DNA from: a virus | Lineage: Duplodnaviria; Caudoviricetes | Length of the DNA: 51,771 nt | Strand: one strand, 5' to 3' | Virus record (IMG/VR): IMGVR_UViG_3300025671_000094 | Span: 1-51,771 of that record | Shown: positions 2,853 through 49,212 of the stretch, in pieces | Position numbering within the stretch: the stretch's first letter is position 1 | Layout of the letters: each line of letters starts with the position of its first letter | The notes under the pieces: model-generated | The model's database searches: none | Seen by the model: the letters and a program-made list of their open reading frames with translations, nothing else | Told to the model about the DNA's origin: nothing | Program-made: the position numbers and the translations under genes

Positions 2853-3040
2853 GCGAGACTGCTTTATATCATCAAATAGGTTTACTACAACAAGAACTTG
2901 CTCATGCAAAAGAAATCATTGAAAGTCTTACTACGGAACGTAATAAGTTTCGTAGTCAGGCTATGATGAGGGCAAATAAAATAGAGACATTATCAAATGA
3001 GATCAATAGTATTTATACGAAACAAGAGTATATCCCCTAG
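2849..3040 (+). CDS. hypothetical coiled-coil protein
   Basis: ATGA overlap with the helicase stop, GAGG RBS, heptad-like sequence. Confidence 0.65.
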   Translation: MSETALYHQIGLLQQELAHAKEIIESLTTERNKFRSQAMMRANKIETLSNEINSIYTKQEYIP

Positions 3041-3164
3041 TCAAGACATTATTAAGCTATTAAATAGTCTTAGATCAAGGGGTACTGAGCCTATTGACTG
3101 GCACTATGATAACAACTATATAACATTTAGAGTAAAGGATGAAAATTATGGCGAAGCAAGCTAG
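2997..3164 (+). CDS. hypothetical 55-aa protein (not in ORF track)
   Basis: Manual translation MRSIVFIRNK...ENYGEAS fills an otherwise empty gap; weak RBS. Confidence 0.4.
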   Translation: MRSIVFIRNKSISPSQDIIKLLNSLRSRGTEPIDWHYDNNYITFRVKDENYGEAS

Positions 3165-3246
3165 TCTTCTTAAACCACGCAAGCAGCGAACCTTCACAGG
3201 AAAGAAATATGCAGGACGTAAAAAGTATCGAGGACAAGGTCGATAA
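3148..3246 (+). CDS. 32-aa basic peptide ending KKYRGQGR (not in ORF track)
   Basis: AAGGA RBS; MAKQASLLKPRKQRTFTGKKYAGRKKYRGQGR; the YRGQG ending resembles small conserved marine-phage peptides. Confidence 0.7.
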   Translation: MAKQASLLKPRKQRTFTGKKYAGRKKYRGQGR

Positions 3247-3265
3247 CTACAAAGGTTTTATTACC

Positions 3266-3700
3266 ATGACAATAAAGGAAGAACGATATGATACACTATA
3301 TATGGACATCGCTAAGCGAGTTGCTCAAATGTCTTACGACAGCGACACGCAAGTTGGTGCAGTCATCGTTAAAGATGGAAACATTATTTCAATGGGCTGG
3401 AACGGTACTCCAAGCGGCTTTGATAATAACTGTAAACACCCTGAAACGGGTATCACTTTATCTACTGTTATTCATGCTGAAGCTAATGCAATCTGTAAGC
3501 TCGCTCGTACTAGTGGTTCTGGATTGGGTGCCACACTGTACACTACGCTCTCACCTTGTATCGAGTGTACTAAGCTTATCCTCCAATCTGGTATCAGCGA
3601 AGTTGTCGTTGAGAAAGCGTATGAAAAAGATCTAGAAGGATTTAAAATTCTCAATGAGAAAGGTATGTTAAGGGTATGCAAATCCATTATCAAAGAATAG
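3266..3700 (+). CDS. dCMP deaminase
   Basis: VGAVIV, GWNG.P, HAEANA and PCIEC zinc motifs; start moved to ATG 3266 because 3148-3246 occupies the upstream part. Confidence 0.93.
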   Translation: MTIKEERYDTLYMDIAKRVAQMSYDSDTQVGAVIVKDGNIISMGWNGTPSGFDNNCKHPETGITLSTVIHAEANAICKLARTSGSGLGATLYTTLSPCIECTKLILQSGISEVVVEKAYEKDLEGFKILNEKGMLRVCKSIIKE

Positions 3701-3945
3701 AGACTTTACCCGATTATGTTGCTTGGGTCCAATGTAATCCTGAAGATCGCAGTCAAGTAGAGGAGATGTTTCCTAAGGATAAATACGAACTACTGATTGC
3801 AATACAACCTAACTATGACCCTATAACTTGTTCACAACAAGTACTTTACAATCCACCCGCTCCAACTTGGGGCTTAGATGTATGGAAGAAAGAGGACGAT
3901 GGAAGATATACGGAACTATCTACTAGAGAGAATCCGCAGCGATAA
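3676..3945 (+). CDS. hypothetical protein
   Basis: ORF overlaps both neighbours in the operon. Confidence 0.6.
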   Translation: MQIHYQRIETLPDYVAWVQCNPEDRSQVEEMFPKDKYELLIAIQPNYDPITCSQQVLYNPPAPTWGLDVWKKEDDGRYTELSTRENPQR

Positions 3946-6016
3946 CATAGGTGTTAAGCCTAGACGCAGCCTACAACTTATGCGTATGATCGACACCGAT
4001 GGTGTTGATATGCTCGACTTCCTAATCGAAGATATGATTATCTACGGACGTAAGTTTATCCAGCGTTGTTTTAAGCGTAGTAAAGTAGAAGGTGAAACCC
4101 CTATTACACAAGCTTCAATGGCTATCGGCAAGTATATTGTTGAAGGCTGGGACAGTAACAACGTTAACTTTAGAGACCATGTTCGTGTTGGTGATCTTAT
4201 CATTGAAGGCTTTGTTATGTGTGGCTACCTGACTATCTCAGTAGGTCACATGAAGAGCCGTAAGCCAGTTACAATCCATGCCACCGATAAATGGGGTGAG
4301 ATGGAAGTAGTAGCTGGCAAAACTACTTGTATGAGTGCAGATCCAATCCCACCTATCAGTAAACTATTTCAGGATAATGGTAGGGCTGTAATTAAAACTT
4401 GGGATAAGTCTAAAGAACACCTGTTTATGAAGTATATTAATGCACCTTTTGTAAAAGCAATTGATAGACTACAGTCTACAAGGTATCGGGTTAACACTGA
4501 AGTTAACCAAGCCATTAAAGAAAATATGTTTATGTTTGTTAAGAACGAAACATTTGATGGTGAAGATAAAGAAGAAAACACTAAGCTGTATCAGCGTCAG
4601 GCTTCTAAGAATCGAGAGATAAAAGAAGTAATGGCTATTGCAGACAAGTGGCTAGGTGAGTCATTTAGTTTCTACATTGATGCAGACTACCGTGGGCGGT
4701 TATACTATAGCGAACCCTTCTTTAACTTTCAGGGTGCTGACATTGCAAGAGGACAACTCTTGTTTGATGAAGGTAAACGCTTTGATGAGTCTGCTAGCTT
4801 CTGGTTAGCTGTTCATACTGCTTGTTGTTTTAATCAGTCATATAGTATTGATGAAATTCCTGAGTGGACTACAGGTAACTACCGTTCTGTACTCGAAGAA
4901 GAAAACTTAGATACTATTTCAGTAGACAAAATGACTCTAGAGGATCGCGCTCAGTGGACTCAAAAGAACATTGAAGTCATTATTGAGATGGGCGAAATGC
5001 GAATGATCGCAGAAGAGGCCGAGAAAGCTATCTCTTTCTTAGCATGTTGCATCGAGTGGTACCGCTACAGTACTACGGATGGGGACTACTATACTCGACT
5101 TCCAATCCCCATAGACGGTGCTAATAACGGCTGGCAACACCTAGGCGCTATGTCTAAAGATTCACTAACAGGGAAGCTAGTTGGGCTTGTTCCTACTGAA
5201 ATCCAGAACGACTTCTATGTACAAATAGCTAAGCGGCTATGCGACAGGATGCCTGAATGGTTTGAAGAAAGACAAATCCCAATGAAGCATATCCGTAAGG
5301 GCATTGCCAAACGTGCAGCTATGACTCGTGCTTATAGTTGTGGTCAAAAGAAAATGTCTGAGTCTATGTATAGCGATTGCTATCAATATGGCTTCACTAA
5401 TGACTACAACATTTCTACCTGGGATTGTGATGAGTTAAGTAGCCAGGTTATTAGGGCTATCCAGGAAGTTTGCCCCGGTCCTTTAGACACCATGAAGTAT
5501 CTGCAGCGGTTAGCTGATCAAGAGATCACTAACTGGTATAAGCAGTATGGTACTGATAGAGGCAAGGGTATCGAGTGGACTACCCCTTCAGGCTTTCCTG
5601 TGATATATGAATGTTATCGCACTAGACCTGTTAAGGTAGACTGTTATGGCTTCAATACGCCTGACGGAGAGATCCGCTTCAAGCACGTTATTAGAGAGCA
5701 TACAGACATCCCTGATCGTAGAGGCTTTATGTGCGGCATTAGCCCTAACTTTGTACACAGTATGGATGCTAGTCATATGGCTCTTGTTATAGCAGACTGG
5801 GAAGGCGACTTCGCTGCTGTGCATGACTCGTATAGCGCTCACGCTGGTAACGTAGAAGATCTTATGGTCAAGACAAGACAAAAGTTTGTTAGTATCTACG
5901 ACAAAGAAAACTTCTATGATACAATACCCTTTGGTAAGGGCTTCGAAGGAGTAGTACCTACTATCGGTAAACTATCTATTAAAGATGTTGCTGATTCTAC
6001 TTACTTCTTTTGTTAA
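3899..6016 (+). CDS. single-subunit T7-type DNA-directed RNA polymerase (~705 aa)
   Basis: DADYRGRLYY, motif A PIPIDGANNGWQH, motif B RKGIAKRAAMTRAYS, SPNFVHSMDASH, motif C AVHDSY, C-terminal YFFC; ATG 3899 with GAGG RBS. Confidence 0.96.
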   Translation: MEDIRNYLLERIRSDNIGVKPRRSLQLMRMIDTDGVDMLDFLIEDMIIYGRKFIQRCFKRSKVEGETPITQASMAIGKYIVEGWDSNNVNFRDHVRVGDLIIEGFVMCGYLTISVGHMKSRKPVTIHATDKWGEMEVVAGKTTCMSADPIPPISKLFQDNGRAVIKTWDKSKEHLFMKYINAPFVKAIDRLQSTRYRVNTEVNQAIKENMFMFVKNETFDGEDKEENTKLYQRQASKNREIKEVMAIADKWLGESFSFYIDADYRGRLYYSEPFFNFQGADIARGQLLFDEGKRFDESASFWLAVHTACCFNQSYSIDEIPEWTTGNYRSVLEEENLDTISVDKMTLEDRAQWTQKNIEVIIEMGEMRMIAEEAEKAISFLACCIEWYRYSTTDGDYYTRLPIPIDGANNGWQHLGAMSKDSLTGKLVGLVPTEIQNDFYVQIAKRLCDRMPEWFEERQIPMKHIRKGIAKRAAMTRAYSCGQKKMSESMYSDCYQYGFTNDYNISTWDCDELSSQVIRAIQEVCPGPLDTMKYLQRLADQEITNWYKQYGTDRGKGIEWTTPSGFPVIYECYRTRPVKVDCYGFNTPDGEIRFKHVIREHTDIPDRRGFMCGISPNFVHSMDASHMALVIADWEGDFAAVHDSYSAHAGNVEDLMVKTRQKFVSIYDKENFYDTIPFGKGFEGVVPTIGKLSIKDVADSTYFFC

Positions 6017-6018
6017 AT

Positions 6019-6072
6019 AAAAAAACCCCACAAGGTTTCCATTACGGATTCCCTGTGGGGTATTTTTATTTT
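6019..6072. terminator. bidirectional rho-independent terminator between the two genome arms
   Basis: A-tract, ACCCCACA...TGTGGGGT inverted repeat, T-tract; lies between convergent stop codons at 6016 and 6071. Confidence 0.9.
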
Positions 6073-6322
6073 ATACTAGTAGCTTTTGAATGTCTTGTTT
6101 TATTTTTGCACGTGCTCTTCCAGAATCAGCTTTAGCTTTTCCTTCTTTAACACCTGCATCGATCAAACCTTTAACATTTTTGTTGTACATTATACGCAAT
6201 AGTTCATCATTAATAGCCGGAGTATATGCCAAAGCAGGATCTAATCCATATTCTTTTACAAATTCCATATCATCAATTTTAAAGCCTTGTAATGCCATTC
6301 GATTATAATTTTTGTTAGCCAT
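6071..6322 (-). CDS. hypothetical protein, last gene of the structural arm
   Basis: GAGG RBS; directly follows the 1265-aa gene. Confidence 0.75.
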   Translation of the reverse strand: MANKNYNRMALQGFKIDDMEFVKEYGLDPALAYTPAINDELLRIMYNKNVKGLIDAGVKEGKAKADSGRARAKIKQDIQKLLV

Positions 6323-6332
6323 AATTTCCTCA

Positions 6333-9300
6333 CTACATATTACTAATGTCTTTAGGTATTTGCGATAAGTATCTATCTTCCACTTCTTTATCTAGCTTTG
6401 CAATACCATTAAGTCTACTTGCAATAGCATAACTTGCAAGATATCCTTTTATAATTGCGGCTAATTGCGATTTAGTTACTATTGAATTTGAACCCTTCCA
6501 ACCATTAGCTTTTGCAATAGAATACCATTTAGCTTCAAATTCATTTAAGCCTCTGCCTGCAGCACGTTTAGCATCGAGTGTCGCTAATTGATCATGCAAA
6601 GCTTTATACTCATTTGATTGATTTAAGATATAGGACGTAGGTGCTTCTGGGCTTAGCAAGTTTTTTACATGTGAGCGAAGTCCGTCTTGTAATGCTTCAT
6701 ATACACCTTGAAATGCATTATGTCCCATTCCATTTGGATTAATTGCAATCTTTTTAAAGTTTCTATTATAGGCACCTCGATAATCTCTAATGCCTCTTAC
6801 ATCCGAAACAATAGCGTCATGAATAAAGTAACCCCACTTAGGTTCTTTTTTATTTTCATTTACTTCAAGAATAGATCTTGCCATAATTGCCGCATCAATT
6901 GCTTGAATTACAAGAACAGGTAATTGATATCTAACTTGATAGCCGTAGGGATCTGGGTTTCTCTTTACGTTTTTAAGTGTTTCAATATCAAATTGTTTAG
7001 AAGTTCTAGCTGGGCGCAAACTGCCTGATGATCTTGTCTTTTTAAGCTCAATAGGATAGCCTTCGGGAAAGTCAGGTAAAGGTACATTGATCATCTCTCC
7101 GGTACCTACTCTTTCTTTTCCACCGATAAACACTACATTACCTAATGGTCCATAGAATCTTGGCGTTTCACCACCAAGCAATGCCCACCCAATACCTACG
7201 TCTTGTAATACTTTTTGATGATCAATATTATCAAGCGTAGCAGTTAAAGCATTTCTAATTAAGCTATTAAAATCTTCTACAAGACCACGATAACCATTAG
7301 GGTCTTCAGCCGTTGCTGCATAACCCTCAATCCGACTATACTTAGCTAGCTCTAATACTTGTTGTCCAAAGCCTGTGCTATTTAAAATCTTCATAACTGT
7401 TTCATAGTTAAACTTTGCAGACTTACCATAAGAATGTTCCATGAGAGGAGTTCTAGATAACATTTTTTCTAATGTTGATTTATCGTTTTGTGAATCTAAT
7501 AATTTAATTACTTCATCACCCCAAAAGTCTTTTTTAAGTTCACGTTGACCTACAAAAGCTGCACCCGTAATTGCTTCAGCTTTAAAGTTAGCATTAAACT
7601 TGGCTCGAATATCTCCTTCTGGGATAACATTCTCTTCATCATTAAAGATAATGCCTACCTTTTTACTTAAATCAATATCTCTACGTTGAGCTGCCTGGAT
7701 AGCCATACCCGATTGTCGTCCATCGGCTTTTGCGCCAACAGTTATTTCAAACCTAGTACTAGCGGTTTCCTCAATTGGCTTTCTAATTAAACCTAGTTGA
7801 GCTGCAATCTGTTGTTCAGCTTGTTGAATAGCGTCTGGATCTCCAGATAACTTAGCATCCTCTAACATCTGAGTTAACCTTTCTGATTCTGGGCTTTCAT
7901 CTGCTTGCGGGATATAATACTTTGATTCTGAGATTTCAGCACCAGGATACTGTCTACGAATATCGCTTGCACCAGTTCGTTTATTGTTTAACTTTGCAGT
8001 ATGGTAATTAGCAAAATCAATATAAGCCCTGACTTGATCGCCCCAGCTTTCGGGATCATCAAATGCTTTCATATCATTGTCAAACTTAATCAACTTAGGA
8101 TTTGATTGTGACATTGCTTTCCAGCGATATCCATTACGAAGCCACCGAGTATATGGTGAGTCATTCTTAGGCTCCTGAGTTACTGCAATTTGCATAACCT
8201 TAGTTATCTCGCGCATTGTCATATTCTTAGGTGCTAAACGTTTACCAGTATAGTATAACACATCGTCTGTAGTTAACAATGCTTCACCTAATGAATACAA
8301 AAAGTCTTGCATTATTTCACTATCTAATGTTGTTTTACTTACATCGACAACTGTTTTCCTAGGACTACGAAGTATGTTTCGTACGATTTTATCATCTTGC
8401 GGATTAAGAACAATGTTTCGATACATATAACGCTCATTGCTTGATGCGTATGCAACAGGAAAATAAAATACTTTATCTTGAAACTCTTCTGCTGCTACAT
8501 AATTTCTAGCAAGCTTCCGGGCTTTCATTGCCATAATAGCATTAGCTTCTGCTTTAGCTGTTTCGTCATCAACTCTTAGCAATGCTTTGGTATAATGCTC
8601 CATCCATTTTGATTCATCTAATCCCAATGCTTTAGCTGCTGGTAGTGTAGAAAATAAACGATTATCTATTTGACCATTAAACGTAGCAAATCCACGAGTA
8701 GGATCACCTACCGATGGAGCCAACAAAGTGATTTTACCATTAGGTGCAATATTAAAATTAACAACTGAGTTAATCATAACCTTCATAATATTAGTAGTTG
8801 TTTTATCTAATGCATTACCCATACGCCCCATAATATCTAGGACTTTTCTCTGCACAGAATCATCATTTGCTCTGCGACTTTTAATAGCTGCATTACCTAC
8901 TTTTTTAAAGCCTTGAGCTAAGTAATGATGCAAACCAACACCTTCAATTTGAGGAGATAGTGAGGGCTTTCTAACATTGCCAGGGTTTAGGTCTACTAAT
9001 ACTTCTCTGGCTGAGTTATAAAAAGTAAGACCGGATTGGGACATCCGATAAGTTTTTCTATTATCAATAGTAATCGGCTCGATAAAACCCATATCTTGAA
9101 TAGCGGACCAAAGAATAGTGTCTGCAAATGCACGTACACGAGGACTGAGTTCTACGCCACCGAACCCCGCCATTGCCCCCGAAGGTAATTGCTGTGGATT
9201 AGGACTTAGTTTATTAACTAAAGAGTTAGCTAGCTGACCACGCTGATATTCTGGATTTATTTCTGTTTTAACTGAAAGTGGAACTGCACCTTCTTCATCA

Positions 9301-10130
9301 ATCTCAAATCCTAATCCTTCAAAGAAGTCTTCAGCTGTTTCAATTTCAGAGCTACTATCTGGATCCTGTTCATTTAAAGCAAGCTTGTCCTTAATATCTT
9401 GCTCACCTTTAAATACTTCTAACAAAGTAACAGCTAGCGCATTGCCTCCAGTATTTGTAAACTGCCTACTCTCAGGGTCTATTACCCCAGCTTTAATCAT
9501 TTCTTGTTGAAACTCAATTGCAACAGGATCATTTGATTGAAGCGCGGGTAAACCCTGCCGATTGAGCGCAGCCTGCAAGCGAACCCCTGTATTGCTAATA
9601 TTATTAAATACAGATTTATTAGTTCCTTGTGCTGGGAATTGGCTTTGTAAAGCTTCGCCTGTTTCAAAAGAGTAGTCTAATGTAGGCGGCGTATACTGAT
9701 TACTAAACTCTTCATCTTGCGCAGCCACTACTTCTGCTGTACCTATGCTCGGCGGTATTAGCTGACCTTCTGGCGTACGCATTGGAGTTTGTTGTATTTC
9801 TTCTGCATAAGGAGTTAACGAGCTAGTTGCCCGCATTGCTTGTCCTACTTGCTCTCTTGTGCTTGGTGCAGCTAATGCAAGATCGCCTTCTGGTCCTACA
9901 TTATAACCGCCTACCATTCGTTCTTGCAAATCTTCGGTAGGTAAATTAATATTTAAATCTTCAGTAGGATCTACTCTTGGGCCTGATTCAAGCGCAAGTT
10001 GATCTAGCTGTGCATCTGTTAACTCTGCACCTGGAGTTGCTTGAGCGCGTTTCCTTGCTTCAAGTTCTACTTTTAGTTTATCGTCAATGCCCCCACGTTG
10101 TAGTGCAAGCGCGGCTCTTCCTTTTGCCAT
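6333..10130 (-). CDS. divergent single-subunit RNA polymerase, probably virion-encapsidated (ejection block)
   Basis: In order: FYFPVAYASSNERY (DxxGR region), motif A KADGRQSGMAIQA, motif B KMLSRTPLMEHSYG, LVIQAIDAAIM, motif C FIHDA; lies at the end of the internal virion protein block. Confidence 0.78.
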   Translation of the reverse strand: MAKGRAALALQRGGIDDKLKVELEARKRAQATPGAELTDAQLDQLALESGPRVDPTEDLNINLPTEDLQERMVGGYNVGPEGDLALAAPSTREQVGQAMRATSSLTPYAEEIQQTPMRTPEGQLIPPSIGTAEVVAAQDEEFSNQYTPPTLDYSFETGEALQSQFPAQGTNKSVFNNISNTGVRLQAALNRQGLPALQSNDPVAIEFQQEMIKAGVIDPESRQFTNTGGNALAVTLLEVFKGEQDIKDKLALNEQDPDSSSEIETAEDFFEGLGFEIDEEGAVPLSVKTEINPEYQRGQLANSLVNKLSPNPQQLPSGAMAGFGGVELSPRVRAFADTILWSAIQDMGFIEPITIDNRKTYRMSQSGLTFYNSAREVLVDLNPGNVRKPSLSPQIEGVGLHHYLAQGFKKVGNAAIKSRRANDDSVQRKVLDIMGRMGNALDKTTTNIMKVMINSVVNFNIAPNGKITLLAPSVGDPTRGFATFNGQIDNRLFSTLPAAKALGLDESKWMEHYTKALLRVDDETAKAEANAIMAMKARKLARNYVAAEEFQDKVFYFPVAYASSNERYMYRNIVLNPQDDKIVRNILRSPRKTVVDVSKTTLDSEIMQDFLYSLGEALLTTDDVLYYTGKRLAPKNMTMREITKVMQIAVTQEPKNDSPYTRWLRNGYRWKAMSQSNPKLIKFDNDMKAFDDPESWGDQVRAYIDFANYHTAKLNNKRTGASDIRRQYPGAEISESKYYIPQADESPESERLTQMLEDAKLSGDPDAIQQAEQQIAAQLGLIRKPIEETASTRFEITVGAKADGRQSGMAIQAAQRRDIDLSKKVGIIFNDEENVIPEGDIRAKFNANFKAEAITGAAFVGQRELKKDFWGDEVIKLLDSQNDKSTLEKMLSRTPLMEHSYGKSAKFNYETVMKILNSTGFGQQVLELAKYSRIEGYAATAEDPNGYRGLVEDFNSLIRNALTATLDNIDHQKVLQDVGIGWALLGGETPRFYGPLGNVVFIGGKERVGTGEMINVPLPDFPEGYPIELKKTRSSGSLRPARTSKQFDIETLKNVKRNPDPYGYQVRYQLPVLVIQAIDAAIMARSILEVNENKKEPKWGYFIHDAIVSDVRGIRDYRGAYNRNFKKIAINPNGMGHNAFQGVYEALQDGLRSHVKNLLSPEAPTSYILNQSNEYKALHDQLATLDAKRAAGRGLNEFEAKWYSIAKANGWKGSNSIVTKSQLAAIIKGYLASYAIASRLNGIAKLDKEVEDRYLSQIPKDISNM

Positions 10131-10146
10131 TTTAATCTCCTAGTTA

Positions 10147-10170
10147 GGGAGATGCCCGTAAGCACCTCCC
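10147..10170 (-). promoter_or_regulatory. stable RNA hairpin with UACG loop just upstream of the putative vRNAP RBS
   Basis: Minus strand GGGAGGTGCT-TACG-GGCATCTCCC, with no U-tract. Confidence 0.55.
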
Positions 10171-10178
10171 GTAGTTAA

Positions 10179-13100
10179 TTAAGATAATAGATCCATTAAT
10201 TCTTTTAAATATGAATCTTTATAGTTTAATGATGCTGCTGGACTTCTCATATGGAGGATATCAGTAGCGGCATCTCGTACTCTATTGATTGAGCTAGTAA
10301 CAGGTACTGTGCTCAAAACACTTTTTGCTGCGCCTTCAGTATTACCTTCTAACAGCTGACCGGCACCTTTAACTACTTTCTGTATATTCCTAGATGAAGG
10401 TCCAGTGTCACCGCCTAAAGTAGATAGCAACCAATTACTCCTATCTGGATACAGCGGAGCTACTAAATCTATAGCACGTTCGTATTGGCCTAATACACCC
10501 GAAGAATATAATGCACGCTGAATATACCCTGGACCATCCAAATATGGGCTTGGCTTTCCAAACTTTATTTCATCCTTAATATACTGACTTGCACCGCCAA
10601 GAACCATCATCATAACGATTAACACAAAGGTGTCATACTTTACTTGTAATGTACCCTTTGCTAATTGATTACGATACAATTGAGGTATTACTACTGAAGT
10701 AAAAGTAGAAATAAAACCATTGAATTGAGTAAACAATTGGTAATGCGGATCTTGGAAAAACAAAGGTCTATTGCTTGATTGAGGATTTTGGATACGTTCA
10801 TTTACAAAATTATAAATTGCAGTATCCATTTGATCTTTAATAAAGTCATCTAGGTTTTGTGCATCTTGAAACAATTCTCTTTTGGAAGTATTTGCAATAT
10901 CACTATTAGCAACCGCAGCATTTAACGCTCGTTGTCTAAGTGGCATATCACCTACTTGTTCATAGTAAGGGTCTTCAGCCTCTCCTTCAATTGCAAATAA
11001 AGAGTCACGATATATTTCCTCTGACAAGGCATAGGCTTCGTAAAGACCTTCTACATCAATACCTAAGTTTGAAAGATATGTATACGCTCTTTGTTCTTCT
11101 GAATTAAATTCATCAAAGTCAAAACCTAATTCAACTTTGCCTGATTCTAAAGCAGCACGTTCAATTGCTTCAGTATCTCCAGGAAGTTCTGTGCTAAATG
11201 GATTTAATTCTTCACGTTGTATACCATAATCTTTTCTTGGTGCATTTAATAATGTTTGCATATGTGATCTAACAAAATCTATAGCAAAGGTAGCATTTAT
11301 TCTACGTTGAAATTGAGTAAAAGTAGTCAACCCAATTACACTAAAGAAAGCTTCATGGGCTCTTAAAAATGCAATATCTTTTTCGCCACTCGCTAGCCTA
11401 TCAATTGCTGAACTTTGTTGTGCAGTTAATCCTGTTCTCTCTAAGTAAACTTTAGAACGTTTAACTTCTTCTGCTAAAAATTTACTATATGCACCACCGA
11501 GTTGTTTAAATAAAGTATCAGTTGCTTGTTTAAATAAAGCATCATCATTTACTTTAAAGTATATCATAACAGTTTCAGGTAATGAAGCCGCTGCAGATAG
11601 TGTTAACCCTGCAAAGATAGACCAGTTAGTAAGTATGCTATTTAACTTTGCTAGCATAGGATTTTTAACTCTGTTAAAGTTACCATGCTCGCTATTAATC
11701 ATTGAAATAACATAATAAGCTAGTTTATCTATTTGAGTTTCAGTAAGACCATCGGGTAGTTCGGCTTGCTCTGCACGTAATTCATTAAATAACTGCGTTA
11801 ACTTACGTCCATTATGACCAAAGTATTGTGTTGAAGAAGAATATTTAGCTGCTTCGCGTTGAGAGCGATGCAATTGCTCAAATAAATTATCGCTAGCCCA
11901 TTGAGCAAAGCCATCAGGATCTTCAATACTAATACGCCGAGTGCGTTCATTAAAAGTCCAGGGTACCCAAGGCTGAGTGCCGCTAACTAATGAATACTCT
12001 TCTCCAAAAGTTGCTTCCCCTCGAAGAGTAATGCTTTCAAACAACTGTTCTAATTGAATTTCATCTGTGCCTAAACCGTTTTTCTTTGCCCAACGCATAA
12101 AACCTTTTTTATCTGATTTTACTTTTTTCCAATCAAAACCATCGAACTTATACCAATACCCAGGAATATAGTCTAGCGCTTTTGCTCCCGTTTCTTCAGT
12201 GTAAGCAGTATTAATCTCATTATGAATTGCTCGATAGGCATCATCAAGTTCTTTTGCAGCTTGATAATAAGTCAATGCTTGTGCTTCAGTATAATCTAAA
12301 TCACCTTTAAAGTCTGCCCATATTATTTTAGAGTCTTGTCCAGGCACAACAACTTCATTTCTTTTAGCTTCAAGATAAGCAGCAACAGCTTCCATGCCTC
12401 CTGCTTTTCCGAATGCTTTAAGTATTTTAGATACCTTAATAGTATTCCTAACATTTGTTCTTGCTTTAGGATTAAATAAAACATTTTTAATCATCTGTGA
12501 CTGATTAACCATTCTGCGCAAACGACCTTCAATTTTATCTTTAGCTGCGCGATGGTTGTCTCCACTAAAGAAACGACCAAATGTAGTCATACCTACTCTT
12601 GACATAATGTCTAAGCCAATTTTACTTTTAACAAGATCAACAGCTTCTATAGCCGCTTTTTCTGCTCCGCGTAATAAATTTAAAACGCCTACTGCAGCAG
12701 TGCCTGCATATTCTTTCAACTCTGTATTAGCAGTAAACCATTTTTTAACACCAACAAAAGCGCTTTTGTAACGATCATGCATTGTTTGAACCGTGTCTTC
12801 TGCAGTGTTTACAGTTTCTTGTTTAACAGCTTTATCTTGCCTAGCTACTTTACTTTGAGCAGCATCTAAAAATAATTGTGCTTCAACCGCACCATACTTT
12901 TCTTTAATTACTTCTGCTTGTAACTTAGCTCTTTCTAAAGTAGGATCTTGGATTGCTGAATCAATAGCATCGTTTACTAACTGCCGAGTTAAATCTTGAT
13001 CAATTGAATTTTTAAACTTATTAACTGTGTTATTAATATACGCTGCATCTTCTTCCTGCGGAGATACTAAACTTAAATTGCTAGCTGTTTGTCTTGCAGT

Positions 13101-14786
13101 AACTTTTGCCCGATCATCAGCTACCTTAATATTATCTTTAACGCTAGGGATAATCTCGCCTGCAGCCTCTCGCTTAACTCTTTCTGCTTCTACTGGTTCT
13201 AACTTATTAATATCCGCTTTATCAGTTTTATCTTTGCGAGCCATATAATTTTTTAATTGACTACGACCACTAGCTACTCCTGAAAAAGTACCGCCAATGG
13301 CTCCACCTGCAATACCTGCATTAATTAATCGATGTTTAATATCATCAGCACTATATACTTTATCCGAAAATCCAGCAGCAGTAGCCATCTGAATTGATTC
13401 TTGAAGTATTTCAGTAATTGATTCAACTGCTGCACCGCGAGCAGAAGCCTTTCCTACTTGAGCAAGTGAAATCCTAGCAAGCATTTCAGGATCTAAAGCA
13501 CCTGCTGCTTTCAATAAACGTGTTTGCTCAGATCTAACTGCATTAGTTAGTATCTTCTCAGCCTCTAGCTGTGTTAAGGGTTTTAGTCTCACCCCTTTTT
13601 TAGTTATACCAGCGGCTACCTGTTTAGCTCGCTGCTCAACTAATGCTTGAGCACCTTTTTGAATTCCTTCTTTAGACAACAAAGATGTTTTTGGTATAAG
13701 CTTACTTAAACCAAAACGTTCTACGACTGACATAGATACGCCGCCAGCTGTAGCTGCAGCCCACTGTGCTGCTCCTTTTTCGCCTTCCATTTCATTCCAG
13801 ATTTGTCCTGAAAAGATAAGCGAGTTAGGGAGCGCAGTAGCACCTAATGCTACCATGCCTGCACCTGCTGCACCAATGAATGGTGTTGCGACTAACATTG
13901 TAGGAGCAGCTAATGCTAGTCCTGCGATTGAAGTTGCAAAGTAAGGAGCTGCCATTGCCGTATTATTCATAACATATTGGAAGCCATCAAATACATTGTT
14001 TACTTCTCGATAGTCTAATAATACTTCCGGTGCTTCTCGCATATTTGCACGAGCACGAGCCACCCCTTGTTCCCCAAGGTTTTCTAACATTTCAATGCCA
14101 GTGACTTGGCCTGTGGCATCCATATAGCCGTACCAGCCTTCTTTAATTCCCTGCCAAGATTGCCCTAATGAACTACCTGCTTGACTAAAGAATCCAATTT
14201 GTTCGTTATCTAAATTACGATCATGGTCTCTGAATGCAACTGAAGAATGATAATCCGGAGAATAATTAGCTTCATTTAATGCGGTGGATTTAAATCGCAA
14301 ACCACCCTTATCAAACTCTTCTTTTACTTTATCTCCAAGCAACTCATAATCAGTTGCTTCGCCCGTAAGCTGACGTCTTGCCCTAGCTGCTTCCAGATTT
14401 GCTAAATCAGAGGCTGCAGTAAAAGCGTTAGGCTCTGCAATTCCAGCAGCAATAAGCGTTTCATCAAGGTCTTCGCCTTCATTGTTAGTGCGCCGAATAA
14501 TAGTACGCCCATACTTATCCACACCTTTTTCTTCGATGTTATAAAATTTACCCTTACGAATAACTTCTTCAACAGCTTCGCTTTGCGCAGCAGCGCCAAG
14601 CTGAGGAGGAGCAACATACTCCTCCCCGTACTTATCTTTCTTTACTGTTGCAATTTCACGCGTATTAGATCCTTCACGGCGATAACGATTACCCGTAGCA
14701 TCAACTTCAGTATCTCCATCGATAATGCGATTAAAGCCGCCTTTACCATCAGGTATTAGCCGTTCTTTCTTTTCGTCATCAGCCAT
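10179..14786 (-). CDS. large internal virion (ejection) protein with N-terminal SNase-like domain
   Basis: 1535 aa with Ala/Gly-rich hydrophobic segments; N-terminal IIDGDT...RE...DKYGR...LIAAGIA; position in the ejection block. Confidence 0.72.
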   Translation of the reverse strand: MADDEKKERLIPDGKGGFNRIIDGDTEVDATGNRYRREGSNTREIATVKKDKYGEEYVAPPQLGAAAQSEAVEEVIRKGKFYNIEEKGVDKYGRTIIRRTNNEGEDLDETLIAAGIAEPNAFTAASDLANLEAARARRQLTGEATDYELLGDKVKEEFDKGGLRFKSTALNEANYSPDYHSSVAFRDHDRNLDNEQIGFFSQAGSSLGQSWQGIKEGWYGYMDATGQVTGIEMLENLGEQGVARARANMREAPEVLLDYREVNNVFDGFQYVMNNTAMAAPYFATSIAGLALAAPTMLVATPFIGAAGAGMVALGATALPNSLIFSGQIWNEMEGEKGAAQWAAATAGGVSMSVVERFGLSKLIPKTSLLSKEGIQKGAQALVEQRAKQVAAGITKKGVRLKPLTQLEAEKILTNAVRSEQTRLLKAAGALDPEMLARISLAQVGKASARGAAVESITEILQESIQMATAAGFSDKVYSADDIKHRLINAGIAGGAIGGTFSGVASGRSQLKNYMARKDKTDKADINKLEPVEAERVKREAAGEIIPSVKDNIKVADDRAKVTARQTASNLSLVSPQEEDAAYINNTVNKFKNSIDQDLTRQLVNDAIDSAIQDPTLERAKLQAEVIKEKYGAVEAQLFLDAAQSKVARQDKAVKQETVNTAEDTVQTMHDRYKSAFVGVKKWFTANTELKEYAGTAAVGVLNLLRGAEKAAIEAVDLVKSKIGLDIMSRVGMTTFGRFFSGDNHRAAKDKIEGRLRRMVNQSQMIKNVLFNPKARTNVRNTIKVSKILKAFGKAGGMEAVAAYLEAKRNEVVVPGQDSKIIWADFKGDLDYTEAQALTYYQAAKELDDAYRAIHNEINTAYTEETGAKALDYIPGYWYKFDGFDWKKVKSDKKGFMRWAKKNGLGTDEIQLEQLFESITLRGEATFGEEYSLVSGTQPWVPWTFNERTRRISIEDPDGFAQWASDNLFEQLHRSQREAAKYSSSTQYFGHNGRKLTQLFNELRAEQAELPDGLTETQIDKLAYYVISMINSEHGNFNRVKNPMLAKLNSILTNWSIFAGLTLSAAASLPETVMIYFKVNDDALFKQATDTLFKQLGGAYSKFLAEEVKRSKVYLERTGLTAQQSSAIDRLASGEKDIAFLRAHEAFFSVIGLTTFTQFQRRINATFAIDFVRSHMQTLLNAPRKDYGIQREELNPFSTELPGDTEAIERAALESGKVELGFDFDEFNSEEQRAYTYLSNLGIDVEGLYEAYALSEEIYRDSLFAIEGEAEDPYYEQVGDMPLRQRALNAAVANSDIANTSKRELFQDAQNLDDFIKDQMDTAIYNFVNERIQNPQSSNRPLFFQDPHYQLFTQFNGFISTFTSVVIPQLYRNQLAKGTLQVKYDTFVLIVMMMVLGGASQYIKDEIKFGKPSPYLDGPGYIQRALYSSGVLGQYERAIDLVAPLYPDRSNWLLSTLGGDTGPSSRNIQKVVKGAGQLLEGNTEGAAKSVLSTVPVTSSINRVRDAATDILHMRSPAASLNYKDSYLKELMDLLS

Positions 14787-14797
14787 TGATCACTCCT

Positions 14798-17395
14798 TTA
14801 ATTGTCATTAAACAATTGTTCTGCTGTAGGATTATTTGCATAGATTTGAGACATCCACCAAGTAAATGCTGTATGTCCATCAGTACGCTCTTTATCTTCA
14901 AAGCTACCCATATTATAATCGGGGTCTTTTCTTTTACGCTCAAGTATTTTATTCCACTTGTTATTCATTGCTTTAAATTCTACTTTAGCATCGGTCTTAC
15001 TTTGATTTACTTCTTGTTGAACTGTATTCATAAGATCTGCAAGCTTGTAGGGATCTGCACCTTCTACATATTTCATATTAAGGCCTGGATTATCTACTGC
15101 AATTCTTTCTTGACGATAAAAATATAATAATGAATTAACAGGGTCTCTACCACCAAAACTAGTATCATCTTTTTTAAACTGAAGATTAGCATCAGCGTAT
15201 TTATCAAGCGCTCTTCGCATTGCTGTTTTAATTCTTCCTTGATTTGAAGTATCAGCAGCTTCTTTGGCAATATCTTCCATTACCAAGTCTCTAGCAGCGC
15301 CACCTAAAGAAGTTAAAGGTACTAATTGATTTTCTTCTTTTACACCTTTATTTACTCGCTCAAAGGCTTGCTTTGCTGCAGAATCGAATGATTTAGCAAG
15401 TTCAATTGGTGAATTTTCAGGTATTACCTTTTTCGCACCAATAGATGCAGCATTAACCCTTTCAAGTTTACCATTAACTTTAACAGTAAGCATAGGTACG
15501 CCATCTACATCTACTGCAGCTTGCATACCTGTCATTCCTGGAACTATATAATAATCTCCGGGGACTACTTTCTTTACTGTACCGCCTTTATCTTCAAGCA
15601 CACCAATGTCACCTGTCTCTAGATATAGCTTAAGAGACTTTGCAGTATAGTTTTTAAGATTATCTTTATTAGTAATAAACTCTTTTCTTGCAGCTAAATC
15701 AGAATCAATCCGCTTAACATAATTTTTCATTGAGTAGTTAAGTGAGTCACCATGATTATAACCCATAATGCGAGAGCCTGCATAAGTAATAAACATTCTA
15801 GCAATTTCAGGTCCACTAAACATACTGGAAAAGGTATCTTTAAACCAGCCACCAACTTCATTAGTTACTTCATCAAACTTAGATTTAGCTTCAGGATCCT
15901 TAGGCAAAGAATTAATAAGCTGATTAATCCCTGCTTCACCCTCAAGAGTAATCTCATTAACGGGGCCAAGCTGTTGCATAACCATTCCAGCAGCATTTTT
16001 CTTTTGCGTTGTTTCTGTAGTATCTTCTGGTTTAGGCGGTACTTTATCTGCTTCAGGTACTGGAACTAACTCCTTTTCTAATTCCGACTTTCTAGCTTTT
16101 AAAGCATCAGCAAGTACAGTATTACCTGCTGCTTTTGCCGCCAAAATCTCTGCATCTATATTAGCTATATTAGATTCGATAGGTGCATTACTAGTAGTTG
16201 CAGATTGAATTGCTTGTTCTTTCTTATATTTTTGATTAGCTTCATTTTGTTTAACTGCTTGATTGTATTCAGCCATACGCCGATCATACATTTCACGATC
16301 ACCATTTTTAGCAAACGTTTCTGCAATTTGTTTAGGTATATCTTTAGAGATGCGATTAGGGTTTACTGCCTGTGGACGCCCTTTATTATCTAGAATAATA
16401 TCCTCAGAATAAGGTGATGTTACTGGTGGAATATTATCTATAACAGGGACACCCATACCCGCAGCTTGTGCAGCTGCATCAGGTAAATACTGACCAGAGC
16501 CTTGTCCACCTGTAGGTACAGGCGGCAATGTAGCTGCATTAGCAGAAAACATTCCTGATTCAATATCTGATTGAGTTAAATCTGAAGGAGTTACACCTCT
16601 ATCAATTAACTCTTGAGGGAAAACTTCTGCATTATTAACCTTACCAGCATAAGCTTGACCACGAGGTCCAAGTGCTTCTGTTCCCTCTTTAGCCTTACGA
16701 ACATTACCTACACCCGAATGATAAGCAGTAATTACTTCATCTTCAGTAAAGTCTGGATTAGCTGCTGCGATACCCATAAGATATTGTCTAGCAAACTCAC
16801 GAGACTTAACCGGATCACGAATATCTTCTGCTGCTAGCGGTGTTACGCCATAGCCAGGCTGCGCTGCTGTAGCAGGCATGATTTGATATTGACCCATAGC
16901 ACCTGCTTCAGAGGTAGCATTAGGATCACCACCGGATTCTATTCTGCGTATGCGATCTAATAAACTATTAGTAACAAAATCACCAGCAGCCGAGTACATA
17001 GGTCCACCATCTCTATCACCAAGCCGTTGACCAAGACTATTTAACATCCCATCATAACGAGGTACTTCCATTCCACCAGCAGCATAAGTAGGAATAGGTC
17101 CACCCTGTGCCTGTTGAATAGCACGACCTTGCTCATTCATTTCATCAATCTTTTCTTGATTACCAGGAAGACGAGATGCTTCAGCGTTAACAACATTTTC
17201 TCCAGGGGTTAACCATGCAGGGACTGTATCAGTTCCTTTAGGATTCCCCGGATGATTACTGGTATCTGCACCGTTATAACCATTAGGCATATCGGGAATC
17301 ATCATCATCATAGGTACGTTTTGGTCTTCAAACAATTCGAGAGAAAACATATTACCATAACGGTCTTTTTGAGTAATGCTTTTTATGTTATGCAT
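14798..17395 (-). CDS. internal virion protein with lytic transglycosylase (SLT) domain
   Basis: IESGGDPNATS, GAMGQYQIMPATA and AYHSGVGNV SLT motifs; GTDTVPAWLTPGE motif. Confidence 0.85.
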   Translation of the reverse strand: MHNIKSITQKDRYGNMFSLELFEDQNVPMMMMIPDMPNGYNGADTSNHPGNPKGTDTVPAWLTPGENVVNAEASRLPGNQEKIDEMNEQGRAIQQAQGGPIPTYAAGGMEVPRYDGMLNSLGQRLGDRDGGPMYSAAGDFVTNSLLDRIRRIESGGDPNATSEAGAMGQYQIMPATAAQPGYGVTPLAAEDIRDPVKSREFARQYLMGIAAANPDFTEDEVITAYHSGVGNVRKAKEGTEALGPRGQAYAGKVNNAEVFPQELIDRGVTPSDLTQSDIESGMFSANAATLPPVPTGGQGSGQYLPDAAAQAAGMGVPVIDNIPPVTSPYSEDIILDNKGRPQAVNPNRISKDIPKQIAETFAKNGDREMYDRRMAEYNQAVKQNEANQKYKKEQAIQSATTSNAPIESNIANIDAEILAAKAAGNTVLADALKARKSELEKELVPVPEADKVPPKPEDTTETTQKKNAAGMVMQQLGPVNEITLEGEAGINQLINSLPKDPEAKSKFDEVTNEVGGWFKDTFSSMFSGPEIARMFITYAGSRIMGYNHGDSLNYSMKNYVKRIDSDLAARKEFITNKDNLKNYTAKSLKLYLETGDIGVLEDKGGTVKKVVPGDYYIVPGMTGMQAAVDVDGVPMLTVKVNGKLERVNAASIGAKKVIPENSPIELAKSFDSAAKQAFERVNKGVKEENQLVPLTSLGGAARDLVMEDIAKEAADTSNQGRIKTAMRRALDKYADANLQFKKDDTSFGGRDPVNSLLYFYRQERIAVDNPGLNMKYVEGADPYKLADLMNTVQQEVNQSKTDAKVEFKAMNNKWNKILERKRKDPDYNMGSFEDKERTDGHTAFTWWMSQIYANNPTAEQLFNDN

Positions 17396-18459: not shown

Positions 18460-18460
18460 A

Positions 18461-19273: not shown

Positions 19274-19275
19274 AA

Positions 19276-31251: not shown

Positions 31252-31260
31252 TATCTACTC

Positions 31261-31566: not shown

Positions 31567-31581
31567 TTTATTTTGCTCCTT

Positions 31582-32847: not shown

Positions 32848-32858
32848 ATCTATTACTC

Positions 32859-48350: not shown

Positions 48351-48496
48351 TCCAAAGTGGTACTAATGGTTTTTCTCTATGTGTTAAAAAGATGTAGAGC
48401 GGTGTTGGGTACCCCCTCTGTGTTTCGGGGTCCCCCCTGTTTCTTTTTCTTTTTTTTTGTAGGACAATCCCGTCCTGCTGTGTCAAGGAGGTTGCT

Positions 48497-48904: not shown

Positions 48905-48908
48905 AACA

Positions 48909-49206: not shown

Positions 49207-49212
49207 CTTCCA

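What the first reader, a model, noticed from the sequence alone, without database searches (positions are those of the whole stretch)
6333..10130. Cryptic second single-subunit RNA polymerase at the end of the ejection-protein block (candidate compact virion RNAP)
Seen: the 1265-aa ORF has, in the correct order, FYFPVAYASSNERY (~8427-8470, cf. T7 WFPYNMDWRGRVY), KADGRQSGMAIQAAQRRD (~7707-7724, cf. motif A FDGSCSGIQHFSAMLRD), KMLSRTPLMEHSYG (~7425-7466, cf. motif B RSVTKRSVMTLAYG), PVLVIQAIDAAIM (cf. PNFVHSQDGSHL) and FIHDA (6813-6824, cf. motif C LIHDS). Both catalytic Asp equivalents are kept. Known: N4-like phages inject a ~3500-aa virion RNAP of this superfamily. Inference: this is a much smaller injected RNAP with an acidic, low-complexity N-terminal region, in a phage with an SU10-type capsid rather than N4 architecture.
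Basis: partly seen in the sequence, partly recalled or inferred. Interest (0 to 1): 0.93.

Follow-up and report, generated by a model that had tools for sequence, protein, structure and literature searches.

The report
Hidden compact phage RNA polymerase
The last big gene of a marine phage's DNA-ejection gene block encodes a very divergent T7/N4-type RNA polymerase that is probably carried in the virus particle and injected, at about a third the size of the only known enzyme of that kind.

Summary
ORF 6333-10130 (-) encodes 1265 aa with the four single-subunit RNAP motifs in order. Ordinary sequence searches miss it: Pfam, PHROGs, NCBIfam, PDB phmmer and phage tblastn gave 0 hits. An AlphaFold2 model of residues 290-1265 (pLDDT 79) matches only T7, mitochondrial and N4 virion RNAPs in the PDB (E 3e-11 to 1e-8). 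In 141 full-length relatives both catalytic Asp and the T/DxxGR Arg are kept 141/141, and the motif B Tyr 139/141. Four of 39 divergent members hit Pfam RNA_pol. So this is a real, probably active polymerase of a large unannotated family: 366 cluster representatives, including gp33 of the cultured Roseobacter phage CRP-7.

Virion packaging is inferred, not shown. The gene occupies the N4 vRNAP position, last in the ejection operon after an SLT protein and a 1535-aa protein. It has no cysteine, like its ejection neighbours and N4 gp50, whereas the phage's T7-like RNAP has 16. It also varies with the ejection module (24-38% identity) while the core genes stay 92-100% identical.

The N-terminus is only partly disordered. 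I read it as a new variant of a known kind.

The parts
6333..10130 (-). 1265-aa ORF: divergent single-subunit RNA polymerase, candidate compact virion RNAP
9867..10130 (-). residues 1-88: low-confidence, acidic N-terminal segment (helix 3-30, then disordered)
   Evidence: pLDDT under 50 for 1-15, 30-37, 49-87; residues 1-290 have net charge -27
9366..9863 (-). residues about 90-255: confidently folded all-helical domain with no significant structural match
   Evidence: pLDDT 77-95; 0 PDB matches at E<=0.001
8856..9365 (-). residues 256-425: acidic disordered linker (261-281), then a small helix/beta-hairpin/helix unit (330-381) with only non-significant winged-helix resemblance, then a poorly modelled stretch
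   Evidence: E 0.7-2; PadR E 0.14
6336..8855 (-). residues 426-1265: polymerase core (N-terminal RNAP domain, palm, fingers, thumb by whole-chain fold match)
8379..8468 (-). T/DxxGR-type motif and following NPQ..K..VR block (residues 555-584; here SSNER, family consensus TSVGR)
   Evidence: R567 and R584 141/141; aligns with the N4 TRVGR...NPQSAKLVR block
7677..7730 (-). motif A (residues 801-818, catalytic D803)
   Evidence: D803 141/141, G808 140/141; aligned to N4 mini-vRNAP D559
7425..7466 (-). motif B (residues 889-902: K889, R893, P895, Y901, G902)
   Evidence: aligned to N4 KNPLTITIYG
7026..7121 (-). long beta-hairpin (residues about 1004-1035) between motifs B and C, in the position of the T7/N4 specificity loop (inference from position only)
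   Evidence: strands 715-729 and 732-746 in model numbering
6879..6926 (-). helix QLPVLVIQAIDAAIMA (residues 1069-1084), counterpart of T7 PNFVHSQDGSHL
   Evidence: hhalign pairs it with T7 780-792; Q1076 127/141; D1079 115 D plus 26 E
6813..6827 (-). motif C FIHDA (residues 1102-1106, catalytic D1105) at the turn of a beta-hairpin
   Evidence: strands 811-814 and 817-820 flank H815-D816 in model numbering; D1105 141/141; paired with T7 H811-D812
10179..14786 (-). upstream neighbour, 1535 aa, cysteine-free, one TM-like segment (residues 287-305); candidate gp15/gp16-like ejection protein
   Evidence: (phrog_6958 virion structural protein)
14798..17395 (-). 865-aa internal virion / ejection protein with SLT transglycosylase domain, cysteine-free
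6071..6322 (-). 83-aa conserved basic ORF just downstream; accompanies the polymerase gene in 25 of 25 related loci
6017..6070 (.). A-run / GC stem / T-run hairpin between the convergent blocks, read as a bidirectional terminator
   Evidence: sequence read by eye; the consensus scan did not list it
3878..6016 (+). the phage's other polymerase: 712-aa T7-like RNAP (PF00940), 16 Cys, 74-100% conserved in 24 of 25 related loci

Best explanation
The ORF encodes a catalytically competent single-subunit DNA-dependent RNA polymerase of the T7/N4 superfamily. It belongs to a previously unannotated family of about 1100-1480-aa proteins found in CRP-7-type marine podoviruses. Most likely it is made late with the structural proteins and packaged in the capsid. 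It would then be ejected through the tail with the SLT protein and the 1535-aa protein, and transcribe the first-entering early genes before any phage protein is made. That would make it a natural mini version of the 3500-aa N4 virion RNAP. The conserved 712-aa T7-like RNAP would then take over later transcription. Shown here: the fold, the conserved catalytic residues, the family, the synteny, the cysteine-free composition and the mosaic behaviour. Inferred: packaging, ejection, template, promoters and timing.
For: FOLD. The AF2 model of residues 290-1265 has pLDDT 79 and pTM 0.77. Foldseek against the PDB gave 72 hits at E<=1e-3, and every chain listed (ranks 1-46) is a T7, yeast or human mitochondrial, or N4 virion RNAP. 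Best hits are 3e2e_A at 3e-11 and N4 9pnq at 3.6e-10, with TM 0.37-0.47 over about 850-1180 columns. In BFVD the named hits among ranks 1-41 are phage RNA polymerases or N4-like vRNAP pieces, and the first DNA polymerase appears at rank 42, E 7e-5. The nearest ESM Atlas named clusters carry PF00940, score 0.96.
SEQUENCE. Four of 39 divergent family members hit Pfam RNA_pol, best E 3.2e-6. A family profile of 141 sequences against an N4 RNAP-domain profile gave E 5.3e-5, probability 67%. That alignment pairs the T/DxxGR-NPQ-KLVR block, motif A Asp with N4 D559, and motif B. The catalytic set is invariant in 141 of 141.
VIRION LINE. The gene is last in the minus-strand structural/ejection block, 48 nt after the 1535-aa gene. 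It follows an SLT internal virion protein, is convergent with the replication genes, and is followed by a terminator hairpin. This matches N4 gp50 after gp52 and gp51. Synteny holds in 25 of 25 IMG/VR loci (RNAP and the 83-aa ORF downstream). The 1535-aa homologue lies upstream in 20 of the 20 loci that reach that far. The protein has 0 Cys in 1265 aa; 126 of 141 family members have 0 and all have 2 or fewer. N4 gp50 has 0 in 3500. CRP-7 gp33-35 have 0. The ejection island has 1 Cys in 4728 aa, against 1.83% in plus-strand proteins, which gives P(0 in 1265) = 7e-11 at that frequency. The gene diverges together with the ejection module (29-52% identity) while the core genes are 92-100% identical in a complete relative. 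No relative was found in 185,579 prokaryote genomes.
Against: There is no direct evidence that the protein is in virions or is ejected. [quoted passage not shown] This protein itself has no significant sequence match to any RNAP: Pfam gave 0 hits at E<=10. hhalign against T7-type sequences gave only E 0.13, 0.028 and 0.0078. A family HMM does not find T7 RNAP or N4 gp50. Global TM-scores are modest (0.37-0.47). I could not measure the Asp-Asp distance because model coordinates are not exposed. The phage already has a conserved T7-like RNAP, so a second polymerase is not obviously required. The structured early-region elements are 100% identical between the window and a relative whose polymerase is only 31% identical. 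So there is no polymerase-promoter co-variation. The T/DxxGR motif is degenerate in this member (SSNER).
Confidence: 0.62

Rival explanations
1. It is an active RNA polymerase but not a virion protein. It would be made late and act inside the cell, for example on a subset of late genes, in replication priming, or in transcription-coupled packaging, alongside the T7-like RNAP.
For: The fold and catalytic conservation say nothing about location. Some phages carry a second T7-like RNAP that is not described as a virion protein (Vibrio phage Peru-2, PMC13320782, passages). No N4-type encapsidation domain is present.
Against: The cysteine-free composition matches the ejection island and is opposite to the phage's intracellular enzymes. 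The gene position and its co-variation with the ejection cassette are hard to explain for an intracellular enzyme, given that the other polymerase is 98-100% conserved. A polymerase for late genes encoded at the very end of the late operon would be oddly timed (inference).
Confidence: 0.17
2. It is a structural ejection protein (gp16-like) derived from a polymerase but no longer catalytic. The fold would be kept for channel building or DNA handling.
For: Position and behaviour are those of an ejection protein. Divergence is extreme (15-38% identity within one phage group). The T/DxxGR motif is degenerate in this member.
Against: Catalytic residues are strictly kept in 141 of 141 sequences at 15-20% overall identity: both metal-binding Asp, the T/DxxGR Arg and the motif B Lys/Tyr. 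That pattern indicates selection on catalysis.
Confidence: 0.08
3. It is a Pol A-type DNA polymerase, primase or other nucleotidyl transferase rather than an RNA polymerase.
For: The palm and fingers are shared with family A DNA polymerases. Two DNA polymerases appear far down the BFVD list, at E 7e-5 and 0.08. The window itself lacks a DNAP gene.
Against: All top PDB and BFVD matches are RNAPs, 6-9 orders of magnitude better. The RNAP-specific T/DxxGR block and the DG..G type of motif A are present. The Pfam links are to RNA_pol. The missing DNAP is explained by about 7.4 kb absent from this incomplete record relative to G001; CRP-7 has a DNAP in the syntenic plus-strand block.
Confidence: 0.04

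Closest known systems
N4 virion RNA polymerase gp50, central RNAP domain (mini-vRNAP, residues 998-2103; Schitoviridae)
   Same: Single-subunit RNAP fold (PDB 9pnq, 3c3l, 2po4 at E 4e-10 to 9e-9). This is the best profile-profile link (E 5.3e-5), with shared T.VGR...NPQ..KLVR, E.DG...G-type motif A in the family consensus, and K.PL....YG motif B. Same gene position after the ejection proteins. Both lack cysteine. Same portal Pfam family in the phage.
   Different: 1265 aa against 3500 aa. No counterpart of the N4 NTD or the autoinhibitory CTD, and none of the four N4 vRNAP Pfam domains; 1 of 39 members matches PF21894 weakly at 0.077. About 10-11% identity. The phage is not N4-like in its other proteins by BLASTP. 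The family is hypervariable, whereas N4 vRNAP is treated as a conserved hallmark gene (PMC10654107, passages). Virion location is untested.
T7 RNA polymerase and T7-like phage/mitochondrial RNAPs (Pfam PF00940)
   Same: Best single fold match (3e2e_A, E 3e-11, TM 0.41/0.47). Motifs A, B and C and the helix before motif C align with T7 780-822. Four of 39 family members reach PF00940.
   Different: This protein has no PF00940 or PF14700 hit. It carries about 420 extra N-terminal residues with a novel helical domain. It is encoded in the late/ejection block and is cysteine-free, unlike the phage's own T7-like RNAP (16 Cys).
Podovirus gp16-like large ejection proteins (T7 gp16; Bruynoghevirus Pa223 gp53, 1055 aa)
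   Same: Last and large gene of the three-gene ejection set. The Pa223 preprint (10.1101/2025.06.11.659172, passages) frames N4 vRNAP as the gp16-like member and notes limited similarity of its gp53 to the N4 vRNAP N-terminus.
   Different: Those proteins are not reported to have a polymerase fold. Here the SLT domain sits in a separate 865-aa protein.
crAss-like phage virion RNAP (recalled from memory; not seen in any call)
   Same: A virion-delivered polymerase hidden in a large 'hypothetical' structural-block protein and recognised by structure.
   Different: As I recall, that enzyme has a two-barrel (multisubunit-type) active site, not the Pol A/T7 right-hand fold found here.

Membership tests
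Single-subunit (T7/N4/mitochondrial) RNA polymerase superfamily | Right-hand polymerase fold superposable on T7 RNAP over most of the chain | tested here: met
   every listed PDB hit is an ssRNAP, E down to 3e-11, about 850-1180 aligned columns, TM 0.37-0.47
Single-subunit (T7/N4/mitochondrial) RNA polymerase superfamily | Motif A and motif C catalytic aspartates | tested here: met
   D803 and D1105 kept 141/141. D1105 lies at a beta-hairpin turn and D803 follows a strand and precedes a helix. They align with N4 D559 and T7 D812. Their spatial juxtaposition could not be measured.
Single-subunit (T7/N4/mitochondrial) RNA polymerase superfamily | Motif B Lys...Tyr-Gly | tested here: met
   K/R893 134/141, Y901 139/141, G902 127/141
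Single-subunit (T7/N4/mitochondrial) RNA polymerase superfamily | T/DxxGR motif | tested here: met
   Family consensus is TSVGR with Arg 141/141. This member reads SSNER, with Thr changed to Ser and Gly to Glu.
Single-subunit (T7/N4/mitochondrial) RNA polymerase superfamily | Significant match to Pfam PF00940 RNA_pol | tested here: not met
   0 hits for this protein at E<=10. Only 4 of 39 divergent relatives match, best 3.2e-6.
Single-subunit (T7/N4/mitochondrial) RNA polymerase superfamily | DNA-templated RNA synthesis | not testable with these tools
   Needs biochemistry
N4-type virion RNA polymerase (Schitoviridae gp50) | Present in the virion and ejected into the host | not testable with these tools
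   Only indirect evidence: position, cysteine-free composition, co-variation with the ejection module
N4-type virion RNA polymerase (Schitoviridae gp50) | Giant three-domain polypeptide (reference range 2842-3820 aa, PMC10654107 passages) with NTD and CTD | tested here: not met
   1265 aa. The 141 full-length family proteins I used were selected at 1000-1500 aa, and the longest of the 150 proteins listed is 1476 aa (the list also holds shorter fragments). No TM segment outside the palm helix.
N4-type virion RNA polymerase (Schitoviridae gp50) | N4 vRNAP Pfam domains PF21769, PF21894, PF21624, PF21867 | tested here: not met
   None in this protein. 1 of 39 relatives matches PF21894 at E 0.077. 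All 120 listed N4 homologues carry all four.
N4-type virion RNA polymerase (Schitoviridae gp50) | ExDGxxxG motif used to screen N4 vRNAPs (PMC10654107, passages) | tested here: inconclusive
   The divergent-family consensus is ExDGNxNG. This member reads KADGRQSG and CRP-7 gp33 reads EADARQSN.
N4-type virion RNA polymerase (Schitoviridae gp50) | Gene at the distal end of the ejection-protein set, downstream of portal and MCP, convergent with replication genes | tested here: met
   Searches compared with N4 annotation
N4-type virion RNA polymerase (Schitoviridae gp50) | Early promoters that are DNA hairpins | tested here: inconclusive
   Conserved tandem hairpins lie before early genes. No start sites are known, there is no co-variation with the polymerase, and no match in CRP-7.

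The most novel reading that the evidence does not exclude
CRP-7-type marine podoviruses carry a deep-branching family of natural 'mini' virion RNA polymerases. The enzyme would be injected and start infection from conserved double-hairpin DNA elements in front of the early genes. It would be exchanged, together with the rest of the ejection cassette, between otherwise near-identical phages. The first enzyme to act in the cell would then be under the same diversifying pressure as tail fibres, for instance because host defences sense or block ejected proteins.
Probability: 0.3. Interest if true: 0.88.

Novelty: new variant of a known kind. Interest (0 to 1): 0.76.

Why it matters
N4-type virion RNAPs are the only injected single-subunit RNAPs known, and they are defined by giant size. 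One published screen for hidden N4-like viruses discarded anything under 2500 aa (PMC10654107, passages). A 1.2-kaa family with the same fold, position and composition would show several things. Transcription by an injected polymerase would not be confined to Schitoviridae. The RNAP core would be able to travel without the N4 NTD and CTD. The strategy would also occur in abundant marine roseophage groups; the CRP-7 paper calls that group ubiquitous (PMC6918029, passages). The family includes gp33 of a cultured phage, so virion proteomics and biochemistry are directly possible. A compact, cysteine-free, self-sufficient RNAP that tolerates extreme sequence variation could also be of biotechnological interest. 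Finally, the polymerase swaps like a tail fibre while the second RNAP stays 98-100% identical. That raises a new question about what selects on ejected enzymes.

Tried and rejected
Direct sequence annotation of the ORF gave nothing. Pfam at E<=10, PHROGs at E<=1, NCBIfam at E<=0.1, phmmer against the PDB at E<=10, and tblastn against 50,697 phage records all returned 0 hits.

A profile of 27 homologues against PDB sequences gave only chance-level hits: AVR3a at E 0.004 over 53 columns and PadR at 0.14. I do not use them.

hhalign against single T7-type sequences was not significant (E 0.13 and 0.028). It is quoted only because the aligned segments are the expected motifs.

A family HMM did not detect T7 RNAP or N4 gp50.

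BLASTP of the window's structural and ejection proteins against N4 gp50-gp59 gave nothing below E 0.09. So I reject the idea that the 1535-aa neighbour is a detached N4 NTD or CTD at the sequence level; this was not tested by fold.

The N-terminal model (residues 1-430) had no PDB match at E<=0.001.

Promoter hunting was inconclusive. Generic direct repeats were dominated by coding repeats. GGAC..GTCC and GTCCTSB were not clearly enriched. A T7-like 'YTATAGRRG' element occurred 5 times against 4.4 expected, all on the minus strand, with no extended consensus. Sigma-70-like sites were at chance level in both regions scanned. Simple 6-bp hairpins were only mildly above shuffles, 61 against a mean of 43.6 and a maximum of 58.

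Rfam gave 0 matches and there are no tRNAs.

Literature: searches found no report of a roughly 1200-aa virion RNAP or of CRP-7 gp33 as a polymerase. This is not exhaustive. Supplements were closed and not requested, and the CRP-7 paper's supplementary annotation could bear on this.

Full report
OBSERVATION. The window is a whole IMG/VR-type virus record of 51,771 bp with 40% GC and no terminal repeat. ORF 6333..10130 on the minus strand is open and encodes 1265 aa. The coordinates are right apart from motif A, which spans 7677-7730. Standard annotation finds nothing. Pfam (E<=10), PHROGs, NCBIfam, phmmer against all PDB sequences, and tblastn against 50,697 phage records all returned 0 hits. 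Public sources that hold the protein or its CRP-7 relative give no name or call it 'hypothetical protein'.

THE FAMILY. A word-seeded search found 26 homologues of 1153-1364 aa, all metagenomic. A profile search over 1.84 billion cluster representatives found 366 proteins at E<=1e-3, 280 at <=1e-10 and 108 at <=1e-30. Apart from fragments, almost all of the 150 listed are 1000-1476 aa. I aligned the 141 proteins of 1000-1500 aa held at that point. R567, R584, D803, R842, D1105 and N1122 are each kept in 141/141, G808 in 140/141, Y901 in 139/141 and K/R893 in 134/141. Mean majority-residue frequency is only 0.21-0.43 per region. These positions are the T/DxxGR arginine, the motif A and motif C aspartates, and the motif B Lys and Tyr. 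The counterpart numbers T7 H784, D787, H811 and D812 and N4 mini-vRNAP D559 can be read from the alignments. The other T7 residue numbers I have in mind are recalled, so I do not rely on them.

FOLD. AlphaFold2 on residues 290-1265 with the 27-sequence alignment gave pLDDT 79 and pTM 0.77. Foldseek against the PDB returned 72 matches at E<=1e-3. Every chain listed (ranks 1-46) is a single-subunit RNAP. They include T7 RNAP (3e2e_A, E 3e-11, TM 0.41/0.47), yeast and human mitochondrial RNAP, and N4 vRNAP (9pnq 3.6e-10; 3c3l, 2po4). In BFVD the named hits among ranks 1-41 are phage RNA polymerases or N4-like vRNAP fragments. DNA polymerases appear only from rank 42, at E 7e-5. In the model, motif C (H-D) sits at the turn of a beta-hairpin, and motif A Asp follows a strand and precedes a helix. 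A 2x15-residue beta-hairpin lies between motifs B and C, where T7 and N4 have the specificity loop (the last point is positional inference). I could not measure the Asp-Asp distance because coordinates are not exposed. ESM Atlas features independently place the protein next to PF00940 clusters, score 0.96.

SEQUENCE BRIDGES. Four of 39 very divergent members (15-20% identical to the query) hit Pfam RNA_pol, best E 3.2e-6. Profile-profile comparison of the 141-member family with an N4 RNAP-domain profile of 30 sequences gave E 5.3e-5, probability 67%. The alignment pairs the family's T.VGR...NPQ..KLVR block, motif A and motif B with N4's. Against a T7-family profile it gave only E 0.0078, probability 5%. 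Both templates had low diversity, with Neff 1.5 and 2.1. A plain HMM search does not find T7 RNAP or N4 gp50. 'Cryptic' is therefore fair. I consider N4's RNAP domain the closest known relative, but only tentatively.

A CULTURED MEMBER. The nearest cultured phage by portal identity (54%) is Roseobacter phage CRP-7. Its layout is syntenic: gp30 is a T7-like RNAP on the plus strand, followed by gp33 (1235 aa), gp34 and gp35 on the minus strand. gp33 is missed by tblastn with the window protein. It matches the family HMM at E 1.3e-60 over its full length and the 27-sequence profile at hhalign E 1.3e-9 with motifs A, B and C kept. The CRP-7 paper names only ORF30 as an RNA polymerase (PMC6918029, passages).

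CONTEXT, AND WHY I THINK IT IS INJECTED. The neighbouring minus-strand genes, in order, include the following:
- an SU10-family portal and MCP, a scaffold-position gene, tail fibre genes and an RNR;
- several small cysteine-poor proteins;
- an 865-aa SLT-domain internal virion protein;
- a 1535-aa 'virion structural protein' with one TM-like segment;
- the polymerase, after a 48-nt gap;
- an 83-aa ORF;
- an A-run/stem/T-run hairpin facing the end of the plus-strand T7-like RNAP gene.

N4 has the same order, portal gp59 ... MCP gp56 ... gp53, gp52, gp51, then vRNAP gp50, convergent with the replication genes. N4's portal matches Pfam SU10_portal even better than the window's does.

In 25 of 25 IMG/VR loci that encode a relative, the 83-aa ORF and the T7-like RNAP follow it. 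In 20 of the 20 loci that extend upstream, the 1535-aa homologue precedes it.

Composition points the same way:
- The polymerase has 0 Cys in 1265 aa.
- 126 of 141 family members have 0 Cys and all have 2 or fewer.
- The 1535-, 865- and 354-aa neighbours, CRP-7 gp33-35 and N4 gp50 (3500 aa) all have 0.
- The same phage's T7-like RNAP, primase and RNR have 16, 8 and 14.

At the plus-strand Cys frequency of 1.83%, the chance of 0 Cys in 1265 residues is 7e-11. At the frequency of the other minus-strand proteins it is 0.002. None of this shows packaging. It is the pattern expected of a protein that shares the fate of the ejection proteins.

MOSAICISM. Against a complete 57,850-bp relative (G001), the replication genes, T7-like RNAP, MCP, scaffold, portal, TerL and lysis genes are 92-100% identical at the protein level. 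The run from the 83-aa ORF through the polymerase (31%), the 1535-aa protein (39%), the SLT protein (40%) and the next small proteins (29-44%, or no hit) forms a divergent island. The tail fibres and the first early genes form two more. Across the 25 loci the T7-like RNAP is 74-100% identical in 24 (43% in L028), while the polymerase studied here is 24-38% identical in 24 (78% in L004). One locus has a 100% identical T7-like RNAP and a 28% identical polymerase. Mutation alone cannot produce that, so the cassette is exchanged by recombination. A paper on another podovirus also notes higher divergence and mosaicism of internal virion protein genes (PMC10386132, passages).

THE N-TERMINUS. A second model (residues 1-430, pLDDT 71.5) shows residues 1-88 and 261-281 as low-confidence acidic segments. 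Residues about 90-255 form a confident helical domain, and residues 330-381 form a helix/beta-hairpin/helix unit. Nothing in the PDB matches at E<=0.001. The winged-helix resemblances are non-significant, at E 0.7-2. The region is poorly conserved. Its role, whether capsid targeting, passage or DNA binding, is open.

WHAT WEAKENS THE INJECTED-RNAP READING. There are no virion data, and no N4-like NTD or CTD. The phage already has a conserved second RNAP. The structured elements before the early genes do not co-vary with the polymerase. Rival readings are given separately with odds: an intracellular RNAP, an exapted inactive ejection protein, and a DNA polymerase.

LITERATURE. I saw passages only, not whole texts, of PMC13434306 and PMC4496689 (N4 vRNAP facts) and PMC10654107 (N4-like screening, length filter, ExDGxxxG). 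I also saw passages of 10.1101/2025.06.11.659172 (the gp14/15/16-like framing of ejection proteins) and PMC10747016. The last proposes a vRNAP in StenR_269 from size, lack of cysteine and helical content, without a fold match. Passages of PMC13320782, PMC6918029, PMC12629253 and PMC10386132 were read as well.

VERDICT. The polymerase identity is well supported, at about 0.95 in my estimate. Virion delivery is the best-supported reading but unproven, and the whole explanation stands at about 0.62. It is a new variant of a known kind and is directly testable in CRP-7.

Noticed in passing
window 49213-49254, 49717-49761, 51657-51701 (+); also 50227-50295, 48940-49010, 48400-48482: Spacers before early plus-strand genes carry stereotyped tandem hairpins about 20-45 nt upstream of the start codon. 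Hairpin A has a 10-12 bp stem, often GGGTAG...CTATCC with a variable, compensating inner stem. After 2-3 nt comes hairpin B, a 6-bp stem RGAYA-N4-TRTCY. DNA folding z-scores are -4.3 to -5.7, with 0 of 200 shuffles as good. Two copies are 100% conserved in relative G001 while the flanking coding DNA is about 87% identical, and G001 has a further copy with a different inner stem. GGTAG..CTATCC occurs only here in the window, 2 matches against 0.42 expected, and not in CRP-7. Candidates are N4-style hairpin promoters, RNA processing sites or attenuators. They do not co-vary with the polymerase cassette.
   Followed up: partly
window 6071-20349, 30434-37894 and 48497-50223, compared with G001: There are three hypervariable islands in an otherwise 92-100% identical genome pair: the ejection module including the polymerase, the tail-fibre genes, and the first early genes.
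   Followed up: partly
window ends (51771 / 1): The record is incomplete. Relative to the complete G001 it lacks about 7.4 kb (G001 about 3040-10480) between its end and its start. No DNA polymerase gene is present in the window, although CRP-7 has one in the syntenic block.
   Followed up: partly
window 6071-6322 (-): An 83-aa ORF with a basic C-terminus and no family match lies beside the polymerase gene in 25 of 25 related loci. It is on the opposite strand in L028 and in CRP-7, where it is gp32. It could be a cofactor; this is untested.
   Followed up: partly
L003 (phage N4) 26680-28968 compared with window 42840-45014: N4's portal gp59 matches Pfam SU10_portal at 1.2e-153. 'SU10-type portal' therefore includes N4-like phages. 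The MCPs fall in different Pfam families, SU10_MCP here and Phage_capsid_4 in N4.
   Followed up: yes
window 31582-34238 and 36852-37738 (-): The tail-fibre region holds three paralogous units spaced about 1.27 kb apart (repeat families D2, D4, D8, D11). The 1259-aa fibre gene contains a run of 21-nt periodic repeats.
   Followed up: no
window 3209-3700 (+) and 26409-28157 (-): A dCMP/cytidine deaminase-family gene sits between the primase-helicase and the T7-like RNAP. A ribonucleotide reductase large-subunit gene lies inside the minus-strand structural block.
   Followed up: no
window 10179-14786 (-), residues 287-305: The 1535-aa cysteine-free neighbour has the only TM-like segment in the ejection set (Kyte-Doolittle 1.73). 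It may supply the membrane-spanning role that N4 literature assigns to the vRNAP N-terminal domain. This is inference.
   Followed up: no
G001 (record behind L024), both ends: By eye, about the last 115-125 nt of the 57,850-nt record recur at its start, although the collection labels it linear. I did not measure this.
   Followed up: no
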